Positions 13,817 to 16,532 of a stretch of DNA of 64,000 nucleotides are shown piece after piece. Position 1 is the stretch's first letter. Each line of letters begins with the position of its first letter. The stretch comes from Fimbriimonadia bacterium (GTDB lineage: Bacteria > Armatimonadota > Fimbriimonadia > Fimbriimonadales > JABRVX01). Both the position numbers and the translations under genes were made by a program. The stretch lies in contig JBGPGO010000001.1 in assembly GCA_041483895.1 (NCBI GenBank), positions 64,001 to 128,000 of the forward strand. Reading direction: 5' to 3'. The notes under the pieces are model-generated. The model was not told where the DNA came from, searched no databases, and saw only the letters and a list, made by a program, of their open reading frames with translations.

Positions 13817-14224
13817 TTATGCCTCCATATCCACAGCTCTGGAATAAAGCGATACGAGTCTTGGCCAAATTGCCGTCTCCAGCGTCTCGTCGAGACGCTG
13901 GATCGTCGGCATCGAGGCCGGGATGGGTTGCTGTTGTTGCCGCTGCTGCTGATGCGCCTGAGGCTGCGCGTGGGAAGAAACATCGAACGAAGACAACTGC
14001 AGACCGCGTGTACTTAGTTGGTCTGACAGCTCCGCCCGATGCGTTTCCAGCGCGGATCGCACCCAGTCGTTTGCCGCCACCATTGTCGCCTCCACTCGAT
14101 GGCCTCGCGACCGGACGGTAAGATCGATTGAGCCAAGCTCCTGCGGTTCCAGACGAATGGTCACCGTGCGAACGGGAACCATGTCTTTTAGTTCCTCAAT
14201 CTTCTCAGCAATGCGGCTTATCAT
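13817..14224 (-). CDS. fliK: Hook-length control protein FliK, C-terminal T3S4 domain (separate reading frame)
   Basis: VTIRLEPQELGSIDLTV...VRSALE....L...L...GL, Q-rich tail, ends AVDMEA; directly upstream of flgD. Confidence 0.85.
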   Translation of the reverse strand: MISRIAEKIEELKDMVPVRTVTIRLEPQELGSIDLTVRSRGHRVEATMVAANDWVRSALETHRAELSDQLSTRGLQLSSFDVSSHAQPQAHQQQRQQQQPIPASMPTIQRLDETLETAIWPRLVSLYSRAVDMEA

Positions 14225-14228
14225 GGCT

Positions 14229-15728
14229 TCAGGCAGTCCGCTCGACCGGTCGAAAGGTGGCAGATCGACTCTGCGTCACCTCCTGCGGTGGAGCATAGGC
14301 GGCGTTGAAGAGCTGCGACGGAATCAGGTTCCGCTTCGGCGCGTCGGCCGGCTTCCCGTCGCCGCGATCTTCCGCGAACGCGTCGATGAGTCCGCCTGCG
14401 GTTGATTGCTGGATGTTGACGGCCGTCAATTCCGGCCGGCCAAGCAGATGGATTTGCTGCAGGCGAACCGGCACAGTGAGGTCCGATGCGGCGACTGCTT
14501 CCGCCTGCACGACTACCCTATTTGTGCCTGTCGACCCAGCATCCGGTCCCGCAGCAGCGAGGTCCCCTCCGGCATCTCCCGCCGAAAGCTTGGTCTTGCC
14601 GGCTAGTGCAAAGTAGTGACCCTGTTCGGTCCCGACACCGCCAGTGCTTTTGGCGCCGTCGTTGGTGCCTATCGACCCAGTGCCGTCAGCATCCGGTCCG
14701 GCGGCTGCGAGATCCCCTCCGGCATCTCCCGCCGAAAGCTTGGTCTTGCCGGCTAGTGCAAAGTAGTGGCCCTGCCTGACATCGACATCGCCGGTGCTTT
14801 TGGCGCCGCTGTTTGAATCCGTACCGGTACCATCCTTGCCACCGCCACCACCGGGCGGCGGGTCAATCTTGAGGTCTGAGCCGAGATTGCCATTGATCTT
14901 TTGCGTGCCGGCGCCACCCGTCTGTTCGCCGCCGGTGGTCTTCGTGGTGTCCCCAGTTTCCTTCGCTCCGATTTGATCGACGGTGCCGCTCTTACTGCCA
15001 ATGAGCATCTTCCAATGGCCTCGACCGATCTCGTCGTTGCCAATCTTCCCGGGTGGAGGTAGGACCTGAGTTCCGCTTACACCGTCACCAGGAGGCTTGC
15101 CGTCTGCTACGGTTGCATCTCCGGCGTTGGCGACTGCTCCCGAATTGCGGATGACGCTGTCGGGGTTGATTGTGTTCTGCCTCCCAGGTGGTGGCAAGAC
15201 GATGATGCCGGACGCAGCATCGCCATTGGTTTCCTTCGTTCCGCCGCCAACTTTGTCGGCAGCCCCGACACCTTTTTCTTGTCCGGCAGAGGAAGCATCT
15301 CCTGCGTCGCCAACGGTTCCTTTTCTCATGCCGATCAGCATAAACCAATGGCCTTGGCCCAGGTCAATGCCGTCGGGCACTGAGTTGGCGCCGGCGCCTG
15401 GCTCACTGGCCTTGTCGCCCTGGCCTGGCGGTTGCTGCGATGGCGGGACGCCCGGCGTATCGGGAGGCAATGGCGCCGGAGGAGGAGGGATGATGCCCGG
15501 CAGCATTCCAAATGGAATCTGACCCGGCTCAATCCCCTTGGTTTCGGTTTGGCCTCCCTGGGTCGGTTGACCCTCGGGTCCAGCCTGATTTTTGATTGTT
15601 CCGCCTACCGGAGGTCCGGTCGGCGGGGCTTTCGGGCTCCCTGGAGAGAGACCCTTGTCCGCTTTCGGTGGCGGCCCCAGCAATGCCATCAGCGGGGCCT
15701 GGCTTGCGCCTATAATGACGTTTGCCAA
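14229..15728 (-). CDS. Low-complexity G/P/A/T-rich protein, probable N-terminal ruler part of FliK
   Basis: TTG 15728 lies 7 nt after AGGAGGT; disordered composition with internal repeats; stop lies 4 nt before the FliK_C ATG, in a different frame. Confidence 0.7.
   Translation of the reverse strand: MANVIIGASQAPLMALLGPPPKADKGLSPGSPKAPPTGPPVGGTIKNQAGPEGQPTQGGQTETKGIEPGQIPFGMLPGIIPPPPAPLPPDTPGVPPSQQPPGQGDKASEPGAGANSVPDGIDLGQGHWFMLIGMRKGTVGDAGDASSAGQEKGVGAADKVGGGTKETNGDAASGIIVLPPPGRQNTINPDSVIRNSGAVANAGDATVADGKPPGDGVSGTQVLPPPGKIGNDEIGRGHWKMLIGSKSGTVDQIGAKETGDTTKTTGGEQTGGAGTQKINGNLGSDLKIDPPPGGGGGKDGTGTDSNSGAKSTGDVDVRQGHYFALAGKTKLSAGDAGGDLAAAGPDADGTGSIGTNDGAKSTGGVGTEQGHYFALAGKTKLSAGDAGGDLAAAGPDAGSTGTNRVVVQAEAVAASDLTVPVRLQQIHLLGRPELTAVNIQQSTAGGLIDAFAEDRGDGKPADAPKRNLIPSQLFNAAYAPPQEVTQSRSATFRPVERTA
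14538..14808. repeat. Tandem duplication with 150-bp period inside the fliK N-terminal ORF
   Basis: CCCCTCCGGCATCTCCCGCCGAAAGCTTGGTCTTGCCGGCTAGTGCAAAGTAGTG is identical at a 150-bp spacing; encodes QGHYFALAGKTKLSAGDAGGDLAAAGPDA twice. Confidence 0.95.
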
Positions 15729-15969: not shown

Positions 15970-16269
15970 TTATTCGCCAGGATTGAACAGAGTTGAAAGT
16001 TCTCGCGCCCCGTGAACGACTCGAGCAATGGATACCAGGTCGTCAGTCAGCCGGTACAGGATTAGGTAATTACCGACAGGAAAACTGAGTAGCCCAGGAA
16101 GGATATCAGGCCGCATCGTACCAACGCCTGGGTTTTCTGCCAGTCTCTTGCATTTATCGATGATCCGGTCTGTCCAACGAATTGCGTTCTCCATGCTATC
16201 TTTGCTGATATGGTCCTGAATGTCGAACAGGTCTTGACGGGCTATATCAGCGAATTCTAGCCTTGGCAT
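15970..16269 (-). CDS. parE: Type II toxin, RelE/ParE family
   Basis: ARQDLFDI..HI..DS..NA...LAENPGVG..RPDI..GLLSFPVGNYLILYR...IARVVHGAR. Confidence 0.92.
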   Translation of the reverse strand: MPRLEFADIARQDLFDIQDHISKDSMENAIRWTDRIIDKCKRLAENPGVGTMRPDILPGLLSFPVGNYLILYRLTDDLVSIARVVHGARELSTLFNPGE

Positions 16270-16532
16270 GCTTCACTCGACGTCTTGGCCAGCAGTCGCT
16301 CGGTCAGTTCCACAAAAACGTCGTCCGCAGGCGCGACCCTCCCGGCTTCAATGTCATCTAAGCCCTTCTGAGCTTCGCGCTTGAGGTCCTCGAACTTGAG
16401 CCGTTTCAACTCATCATGGTCATTCAGCAACCGAAGGGCCTCTCGCACTACTTCGCTGACGGAATTGTACATGCCACTGGCGACCTTGGCGGCGAGCATT
16501 TTTTCCAGTTCCGGGGTTAGGGATACGTTCAT
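16257..16532 (-). CDS. parD: Type II antitoxin, ParD/CC2985 ribbon-helix-helix family
   Basis: MNVSLTPELE...VASGMYNSVSEVVREALRLL; overlaps the toxin gene; SD GGAG. Confidence 0.93.
   Translation of the reverse strand: MNVSLTPELEKMLAAKVASGMYNSVSEVVREALRLLNDHDELKRLKFEDLKREAQKGLDDIEAGRVAPADDVFVELTERLLAKTSSEACQG

What the first reader, a model, noticed from the sequence alone, without database searches (positions are those of the whole stretch)
13817..15728. fliK is split in two frames with a candidate programmed +1 slip site (ACC-TTT-CGA): a possible translationally switched hook ruler
Seen: the ~500-codon disordered ORF stops at 14229. The FliK C-terminal domain is in the +1 frame, which is open upstream of its ATG back to 14275 (RRVDLPPFDRSSGLPEAMISRIAEK...). 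In the overlap the 0-frame reads ACC TTT CGA (minus strand 14258-14250). A Phe-tRNA slipping from UUU to UUC keeps cognate pairing and enters the FliK_C frame, giving a ~636-aa full-length FliK. The site overlaps a perfect 12-bp palindrome TCGACCGGTCGA (14242-14253), and the ATG at 14224 has no clear SD. Established: FliK normally needs its secreted N-terminal ruler and T3S4 domain in one chain, and UUU-CGN is a known +1 shift context in some eukaryotic viruses. Inference: this may be programmed recoding that limits ruler level, a true two-component FliK, or a 1-nt sequencing error or mutation. All other flagellar genes here look intact.
Basis: partly seen in the sequence, partly recalled or inferred. 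Interest (0 to 1): 0.75.

Follow-up and report, generated by a model that had tools for sequence, protein, structure and literature searches.

The report
Hook ruler gene needing a frameshift
In one small family of uncultured bacteria, the gene for the protein that measures the flagellar hook is split across two reading frames, and the whole protein is probably made only when the ribosome slips forward one base at a conserved site, which has been inferred from sequence but not measured.

Summary
The split is real and inherited. Contigs of 4 of 4 runs laid cross it without an indel. Both other genomes of the family and two metagenome contigs have the same +1 break, while 117 of 119 other class matches have long continuous frames and 2 sit at contig starts. 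All five loci carry CC-TTT-C seven codons before the stop: the only cognate +1 re-pairing site they share, in DNA about 27% identical between the two lineages. The window's ATG, CGA codon and palindrome are not conserved. Best reading (0.6): programmed +1 slip at UUU-C, like FseA, giving a minor 603-636-aa FliK. New here: the unshifted product also ends in FliK's terminal five-residue motif (5 of 5; 90 of 125 fused FliKs; 15 of 1831 background), so it looks like a selected switch-less ruler. Main rival (0.2): a separate switch protein started at a conserved CTG. DNA covers only two independent lineages; no expression data. No fliK frameshift found in papers searched or in earlier scan notes.

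The parts
14229..15728 (-). fliK ORF1: 499-aa low-complexity ruler region (0 frame), TTG start with strong SD, TGA stop
   Evidence: homologous ORF1 of 465-469 aa from the presumed start in three full-length relatives, 22-29% local identity to the window; no Pfam hit
13817..14275 (-). fliK ORF2, +1 frame open from 14275: T3S4 switch domain plus C-terminal tail; only FliK_C copy found in the genome
   Evidence: PF02120 E 1e-17; matches 2RRL by sequence and fold, and PscP SS domain by fold; one match in G000
14252..14257 (-). Conserved CC-TTT-C, candidate +1 shift site (Phe codon 14255-14253, seven codons before the stop)
   Evidence: identical and in register in 5 of 5 loci; only cognate +1 site in the window overlap and only one shared by all; 0 of 25 fused orthologues have it in the 75 nt upstream
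14253..14284 (-). SD-like GGAGGTG (14283-14277) and a predicted hairpin just 5' of or including the shift site; possible stimulator, or a gate on initiation
   Evidence: GAGGTG present in 5 of 5 loci; stem kept by G-U changes in the 4 clade loci; folding z-scores only -0.03 to -1.62, so not shown
14261..14263 (-). CTG in the +1 frame: rival non-AUG start for ORF2
   Evidence: present in 5 of 5 loci; 7-8 nt from the SD in the 4 clade loci, 13-14 nt in the window; no genome-wide SD peak before CTG
14232..14246 (-). Last five codons of ORF1: hydrophobic-acidic-x-x-hydrophobic motif before the stop, as at FliK C-termini
   Evidence: 5 of 5 ORF1 ends; 90 of 125 fused FliK representatives; 15 of 1831 long ORFs of G000
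14189..14236 (-). Helix alpha1 of the switch domain; begins four residues before the Met at 14224 and straddles the 0-frame stop
   Evidence: AlphaFold model, helix at residues 14-29; Glu-Ala kept with synonymous changes in 5 of 5
14222..14224 (-). ATG taken as ORF2 start by gene callers; probably an internal helix residue
   Evidence: GTC or TTC at this codon in the other 4 loci; Ile in the fused relative P0019
11603..13813 (-). Downstream flgD, PF12611 gene and flgE, intact, same order in G001 and G002

Best explanation
fliK is expressed by programmed +1 ribosomal frameshifting. Most ribosomes read ORF1 to its TGA and release a 499-aa ruler without the switch fold. A minority, with tRNA-Phe on UUU in CC-UUU-C, re-pair on the overlapping UUC, pass the stop out of frame and make a 636-aa ruler-plus-switch FliK, the only form that can both measure the hook and act on FlhB. 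The purpose is most likely to keep switch-competent FliK scarce while fliK, flgD and flgE share one strongly translated operon. The unshifted product ends in the FliK terminal pentapeptide, most simply a Lon-type removal tag, possibly also an FlhB-contacting decoy. SHOWN: the split, its inheritance, the conserved site, the missing conserved ATG, the terminal motif. INFERRED: that ribosomes shift, the rate, any role of the 5' hairpin, the role of the short product, co-transcription.
For: Same +1 phase and same site in 5 of 5 loci. TTT-to-TTC at codon -9 is the only cognate +1 site shared, and no -2 site is shared. Identity outside the block is 0.24-0.30, so 4 predicted bases matching has p about 0.003-0.008 (one comparison of two lineages). 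TTT is the minority Phe codon: 35% in G000, 6 of 55 and 12 of 57 in crude long-frame sets of G001 and G002. In the clade 8 of 8 codons with an invariant residue from -18 to -9 are also invariant as DNA (p about 0.004 against the ORF2 baseline); third-position changes resume right after the site. The +1 frame is under selection from the codon overlapping the stop, upstream of any conserved standard start. Fused lengths would be 603-636 aa, inside the range of continuous relatives. A fused relative, P0019, groups with these loci (95/95). No second fliK; flhB, flagellins and Lon are present in 3 of 3 genomes. UUU_Y is +1-prone in bacteria (PMC5009743, passage) and FseA uses UUUC at 4-13% (PMC4755241, passages).
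Against: No protein or RNA evidence. DNA for only two independent lineages (the window, and one clade of 4 related loci). A CTG with a well spaced SD is kept in the 4 clade loci and would explain the same invariant block. The SD-like motif is 18-21 nt from the site, not the 3 nt known to stimulate +1 shifts (PMC5009743). The hairpin is not significant by shuffling, and the published hairpin effect was on a CUUUGA site without RF2 (PMC6321510, section 2.1). Between site and stop the 0 frame looks more constrained than the +1 frame. Phe could be kept for protein reasons. In the YopN-TyeA case, mutating the proposed UUU site did not abolish the hybrid (PMC3789692, passages), so a site called from sequence can be wrong.
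Confidence: 0.6

Rival explanations
1. True two-component FliK. ORF2 is translated separately from the conserved CTG behind the GAGGTG SD; the hairpin hides both until ribosomes on ORF1 open it. The product is a cytoplasmic switch protein like HpaC, acting alone or bound to the ORF1 ruler.
For: CTG in the +1 frame in 5 of 5 loci, SD at 7-8 nt in the 4 clade loci, within the 5-8 nt peak of this genome. ORF1 has its own FliK-like end. HpaC is a non-secreted T3S4 protein, and switching can be uncoupled from length control (PMC2427183, passages). Coupling and frameshifting can be interchangeable in one family (PMC3711429, passage).
Against: In the window the spacing is 13-14 nt, at background level, and G000 shows no SD peak before CTG. 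The CTG is not at the same distance from the stop in the two lineages (-11 and -12) whereas CC-TTT-C is. A free switch domain cannot measure length by the tethered-ruler model (PMC13344023, model section), and excess FliK-C impairs motility in Caulobacter (PMC8545394, passages). It does not explain the minority TTT codon.
Confidence: 0.2
2. The frame change happens at the stop itself: a prfB-like slip, or a short hop in which the peptidyl-tRNA lands on a matching codon just past the TGA.
For: The codon before the stop recurs in the +1 frame within 3 codons after it in 4 of 5 loci (GCC in the window, TTC in 3 clade loci). It would explain why the 0-frame tail is conserved up to the stop.
Against: Noticed after the fact; G001 lacks the match; no cognate re-pairing at the stop codon in any locus; no SD 3 nt upstream; a hop would skip Glu-Ala, which evolve as +1-frame codons; the 0-frame tail is explained by the terminal motif. 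The review knows no natural in-frame stop hop and calls hopping much less frequent (PMC5009743, passages).
Confidence: 0.07
3. RNA polymerase, not the ribosome, slips: one base is dropped in the pyrimidine run behind the 5' hairpin, giving a fraction of in-frame mRNA.
For: Hairpin followed by a C/T run in the clade; transcriptional slippage is used in the Shigella type III system (PMC5009743, passage).
Against: No run longer than 3-4 identical bases; the window's run is shorter still; a one-base deletion is needed.
Confidence: 0.05
4. Ordinary translational coupling with a different standard start in each lineage (ATG 14224 in the window; a later GTG in the clade).
For: ATG 4 nt after the stop in the window; an ATG or GTG at codon 16-17 in 5 of 5 with moderate SD scores in 4 of 5; gene callers use these; P0015 is called from a Val at this helix.
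Against: Start within 10 nt of the stop in only 1 of 5 loci; a start at codon 16-17 would delete helix alpha1, which is conserved with synonymous changes.
Confidence: 0.05
5. Artefact or decayed gene: a one-base assembly error, as happened for fliK in the Caulobacter NA1000 reference, or a pseudogene.
For: A split fliK annotation in Caulobacter proved to be a missing G (PMC8545394, section on CCNA_00944/MotD). All sources here are metagenome assemblies.
Against: Four runs of four studies give contigs across the junction without an indel (one may be the source sample); same break in 4 other loci with ORF2 44-48% identical; both ORFs stay open and ORF2 evolves synonymously.
Confidence: 0.03

Closest known systems
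FseA (msi172-msi171) of ICEMlSym R7A, Mesorhizobium
   Same: Two ORFs, second in +1; UUUC site near the 3' end of ORF1; G-rich stretch upstream; single-ORF and two-ORF variants among homologues; frameshift thought to limit a switch protein (PMC4755241, passages)
   Different: FseA is on a mobile element and is a transcription activator, and its shift was measured (4-13%). Here it is a core chromosomal flagellar gene, unmeasured, and the unshifted product carries its own terminal motif.
YopN-TyeA hybrid of Yersinia type III secretion
   Same: +1 shift proposed at a UUU-pyrimidine site in a type III secretion control gene, joining two overlapping ORFs (PMC5009743, PMC3789692, passages)
   Different: There both genes make separate proteins and the hybrid is minor; the site is disputed. 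Here ORF2 has no conserved standard start and the fused form would be the ancestral, working protein.
FliK of Salmonella and Caulobacter (PF02120, T3S4 family)
   Same: Disordered ruler, T3S4 fold, terminal five-residue motif, position before flgD-flgE
   Different: Encoded by one ORF in those and in all other class members examined that are not cut by a contig end. The split once annotated in Caulobacter NA1000 was a sequence error (PMC8545394).
HpaC of Xanthomonas
   Same: A short T3S4 protein without a long ruler, as ORF2 alone would be (PMC2427183, passages)
   Different: Injectisome protein with its own gene, no overlapping ruler ORF in another frame, no length control.
Influenza PA-X type UCC_UUU_CGU cassette
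   Same: CC-UUU-C core
   Different: CGN is present in 1 of 5 loci; eukaryotic ribosomes.

Membership tests
FliK / T3S4 hook-length control protein | C-terminal T3S4 (Flg_hook) domain | tested here: met
   PF02120 E 1e-17; 2RRL and 5CUK are the two fold matches under E 0.001
FliK / T3S4 hook-length control protein | Long low-complexity N-terminal ruler, upstream of flgD-flgE | tested here: met
   499 aa, 60% G/P/A/S/T/D, directly before ORF2-flgD; identity as ruler rests on position and composition, no Pfam hit
FliK / T3S4 hook-length control protein | Terminal five-residue motif | tested here: met
   present on ORF2 and also on ORF1
FliK / T3S4 hook-length control protein | Ruler and switch in one open reading frame | tested here: not met
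   split in 5 of 5 family loci with DNA; met only if recoded
FliK / T3S4 hook-length control protein | Secretion through the flagellar export gate; polyhooks when deleted | not testable with these tools
   no culture or protein data
Bacterial +1 programmed frameshift at UUU-Y (FseA type) | Conserved in-frame UUU-Y in the overlap near the end of ORF1 | tested here: met
   5 of 5, same offset
Bacterial +1 programmed frameshift at UUU-Y (FseA type) | ORF2 in +1 without a conserved standard start; fused homologues exist | tested here: met
   P0019 and the continuous class members; a CTG remains possible
Bacterial +1 programmed frameshift at UUU-Y (FseA type) | Stimulatory element 5' of the site | tested here: inconclusive
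   GAGGTG and hairpin in 5 of 5, but spacing 18-21 nt and z above -1.7
Bacterial +1 programmed frameshift at UUU-Y (FseA type) | Measured trans-frame product | not testable with these tools
   needs reporter or mass spectrometry
prfB-type +1 frameshift | Re-pairable codon next to the stop with an SD 3 nt upstream | tested here: not met
   codon before TGA is GCC or TTC, not cognate in +1
PA-X type viral cassette | UUU followed by CGN | tested here: not met
   1 of 5 loci
Translationally coupled gene pair (criterion of PMC3711429) | Conserved ATG/GTG within 10 nt of the ORF1 stop | tested here: not met
   1 of 5 loci

The most novel reading that the evidence does not exclude
One gene makes two rulers of nearly equal length: an abundant blank ruler that ends in the FlhB-contacting pentapeptide but lacks the fold that pauses secretion, and a rare frameshifted ruler that can flip the export switch. 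The ribosomal slip rate then sets the chance that any ruler sent through the hook triggers switching, so translation accuracy directly tunes hook length and the timing of filament assembly.
Probability: 0.3. Interest if true: 0.88.

Novelty: new variant of a known kind. Interest (0 to 1): 0.76.

Why it matters
Programmed frameshifts in bacteria are mostly known from mobile elements; a conserved one in a core flagellar gene would add a rare chromosomal case. I found no report for fliK in the searches made (main text and 2 of 3 supplements of PMC3711429; subscription papers are largely outside this library). For flagellar biology it is a natural experiment on an open question: whether ruler and switch must be one chain, and how the frequency of switch-competent rulers sets hook length. 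A recent model holds that FliK without its fold is secreted but does not switch, and that the last five residues act on FlhB (PMC13344023); this family appears to encode exactly such a fold-less form as its main product. Either leading explanation, frameshift or two-piece FliK, departs from the textbook gene. The cassette is about 60 bases and testable in an E. coli reporter.

Tried and rejected
Palindrome as a signal: common by chance and not conserved. CGA as a slow codon: not rare, own tRNA, not conserved. 3' stimulatory structure: no consistent stable fold downstream. 5' hairpin significance: not above shuffles, only among the top 5-26% of 25-nt windows of the same genes. A -2 slip: 3 clade loci have a site at codon -14, the window none. 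Sequencing-run search: no RNA holder listed. Complex prediction of ORF1 tail with ORF2 core: no answer, controls not folded. Search for long family-type proteins with the word index found none but the profile search found P0019, so that blank was uninformative. Search with the ORF1 tail found only the window's own cluster. No 16S 3' end was found in the assembly; the anti-SD motif used is recalled. Short FliK_C frames elsewhere in the phylum (G181, G136, G214, G415) and class (G557, G439) were set aside as contig-edge cuts from their coordinates; 38 of 188 matches were not listed and not examined. The first tree was unresolved with long branches; the second left out 9 fused rows and 3 outgroups. 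PMC3223724 held nothing relevant. The promoter scan gave nothing usable before fliK. The one earlier scan note returned (FliK with a peptidase) concerns a different feature and was not used.

Full report
Observation. On the minus strand a 499-codon low-complexity ORF (15728 to 14229) is followed by a FliK C-terminal domain in the +1 frame (ATG 14224 to 13817; PF02120 E 1e-17), then flgD, a PF12611 gene and flgE. The +1 frame is open from 14275, giving a 15-codon overlap that holds ACC TTT CGA at 14258-14250. Relatives in the same family are labelled Fimbriimonadales or Fimbriimonadia by their sources.

Not an error. Contigs of 4 of 4 runs laid, from four studies, cross the junction with no base left out or put in; three match exactly and one is a related strain whose listed differences lie at 14429-14480. 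These are contigs, not raw reads, and one run may be the source of the window. A second variant contig in run X1 differs at five places in ORF2, giving three synonymous codons and one Ile-to-Val. This check matters because a split fliK annotated in Caulobacter NA1000 turned out to be a missing G in the reference (PMC8545394, section read).

Inherited and family-specific. Both other genomes of the family (G001, G002) have a short FliK_C frame, 176 and 163 codons, while the 51 other matches among 61 genomes had 298-847. Across the class, 122 of 228 genomes matched; of the 119 outside the family 117 have frames of 338 codons or more and 2 lie at contig starts. In the phylum sample (187 of 401 genomes matched, 150 matches listed) the four other frames under 300 codons are cut by contig ends. 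Two metagenome contigs, L033 and L034, add two more split loci; L035 is G002 again. L033 holds only the last 70 or so codons of ORF1. So there are five loci but two independent lineages: the window and a clade of four. A third lineage, P0015/P0006, is called as a short protein starting at the same helix, without DNA. One close relative, P0019, is a continuous 413-aa FliK; it groups with the split loci (95/95) and a split-only clade is neither found nor rejected (p-AU 0.08), so re-fusion or an early branch are both possible. Each of the three genomes has one FliK_C over the Pfam cut-off, an intact flhB, flagellins and Lon.

The site. In all five loci the stop is TGA, the phase is +1, and CC-TTT-C lies seven codons before the stop. 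It is the longest block identical in all five at the 3' end of ORF1, where stop-anchored identity between the lineages is otherwise 0.24-0.30; four predicted bases matching by chance has p of about 0.003-0.008. TTT-to-TTC at codon -9 is the only cognate +1 re-pairing in the window's overlap and the only one shared; the clade adds flanking CCC codons that can also re-pair. TTT is the minority Phe codon. None of 25 fused orthologues has the hexamer in the 75 bases before the domain. In the clade, the 8 codons with an invariant residue from -18 to -9 are all invariant as DNA (p about 0.004 against ORF2). What is not conserved: the CGA, the palindrome and the ATG (GTC or TTC in the other four).

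The +1 frame is entered before the stop. Glu-Ala overlapping the TGA are kept in 5 of 5 with third-position changes in the +1 frame. In the AlphaFold model helix alpha1 spans residues 14-29 and starts four residues before the window's Met; the fold matches Salmonella FliK-C and PscP. The next standard starts in the clade lie at codon 10 (3 of 4) or 17 (4 of 4) and would cut or delete this helix. Entry must therefore be by recoding or by a non-standard start upstream.

The rival start. All five loci have a CTG in the +1 frame behind an SD-like GAGGTG. The spacing is 7-8 bases in the clade, inside this genome's 5-8 peak, but 13-14 in the window, and G000 shows no SD peak before CTG codons. A hairpin covers both elements in all five, kept by G-U changes in the clade, yet it is no more stable than shuffles. 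It could gate initiation, or push the ribosome forward: an upstream hairpin stimulated +1 shifting on 70S ribosomes, though on a CUUUGA site and only without RF2 (PMC6321510, abstract and section 2.1). The SD is 18-21 bases from the TTT, not the 3 bases known for +1 stimulation (PMC5009743). I cannot separate these readings by sequence; I put the frameshift at 0.6 and the CTG start at 0.2, and both may operate (PMC3711429, passage).

The unshifted product looks selected. ORF1 ends in hydrophobic-acidic-x-x-hydrophobic-stop in 5 of 5 loci, the pattern that ends ORF2, 90 of 125 fused FliK representatives of 350 aa or more, and only 15 of 1831 long ORFs of G000. I noticed this after seeing the sequences; in the window the match is looser (Glu for Asp). 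In Caulobacter these five residues are both the Lon tag and needed for FliK-C activity (PMC8545394, passages). In Salmonella they are proposed to act on FlhB after a pause made by the T3S4 fold, and variants without the fold are secreted but do not switch (PMC13344023, model section). This explains why the 0 frame stays constrained between site and stop without placing the shift at the stop.

Mechanism. Shown: split, inheritance, site, lack of a conserved standard start, terminal motif. Inferred: ribosomes start at the strong SD of ORF1; most stop at TGA and release a fold-less ruler that is secreted without switching or removed by Lon; a few percent (by analogy with FseA, 4-13%, PMC4755241) slip at UUU-C, which is known to be +1-prone in bacteria (PMC5009743), and make full FliK of 603-636 aa. 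FliK is secreted only a few times per hook (PMC6972891, introduction) and excess is harmful (PMC8545394), so a frameshift is a plausible way to keep it scarce at the head of an operon that must supply much FlgE. That the genes share a transcript is assumed from their spacing.

Comparison and novelty. It works like FseA and like the proposed YopN-TyeA shift (PMC3789692, passages, where mutating the proposed site did not remove the hybrid). It is a FliK by domain, fold, tail and context but fails the single-ORF feature. It is not of the prfB or PA-X type. Papers seen: passages of PMC5009743 (first 300,000 characters held), PMC4755241, PMC3789692, PMC2427183, PMC3223724; passages plus one section of PMC8545394 and PMC13344023; abstract plus one section of PMC6321510 and PMC6972891; passages and 2 of 3 supplements of PMC3711429, which has no fliK hit but lists three unnamed +1 'Flagella' clusters classed as translational coupling, and the unread supplement may bear on this. 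Searches for a fliK frameshift or split listed nothing on it. Earlier scan notes hold no such finding.

Verdict. A real, family-conserved split of the hook ruler gene with a conserved UUU-C site; a new variant of a known kind; probably programmed +1 frameshifting, unmeasured. Interest 0.76.

Noticed in passing
window 14537-14813: Two 127-nt direct repeats, 87% identical, 150 bases apart, in frame within the ruler. One contig of run X4 skips exactly 150 bases here: a ruler-length variant of 50 residues, or a collapsed assembly.
   Followed up: partly
window 14980-15359: A short aromatic peptide motif recurs four times in ORF1, and other short motifs recur in the clade's ORF1; possible binding repeats in an otherwise disordered ruler.
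   Followed up: no
window 15970-16532: A parD-parE type II toxin-antitoxin pair lies directly upstream of fliK on the same strand.
   Followed up: no
L033 1-1090: DNA upstream of the last 70 or so codons of ORF1 is not homologous to fliK: a chimeric contig or an insertion.
   Followed up: partly
protein P0018 (no locus): A 1638-aa protein named FliK, partial, from Allochromatium warmingii with 11 matches to the FliK_C profile: tandem switch domains or an assembly artefact.
   Followed up: no
L021, L022, L024, L026-L029 (family f4): FliK of this family ends in a Trp-rich tail instead of the usual acidic terminal motif and is shorter, about 360-430 codons.
   Followed up: no
G000 genome-wide: tRNA-Arg genes with TCG and GCG anticodons and none with ACG among 49 called; a tRNA-Sec is present; TAG is the commonest stop in a crude long-ORF set.
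   Followed up: no
family f5, genus g15: No FliK_C match in 0 of 6 genomes of this genus with the queries used; possibly non-flagellated.
   Followed up: no
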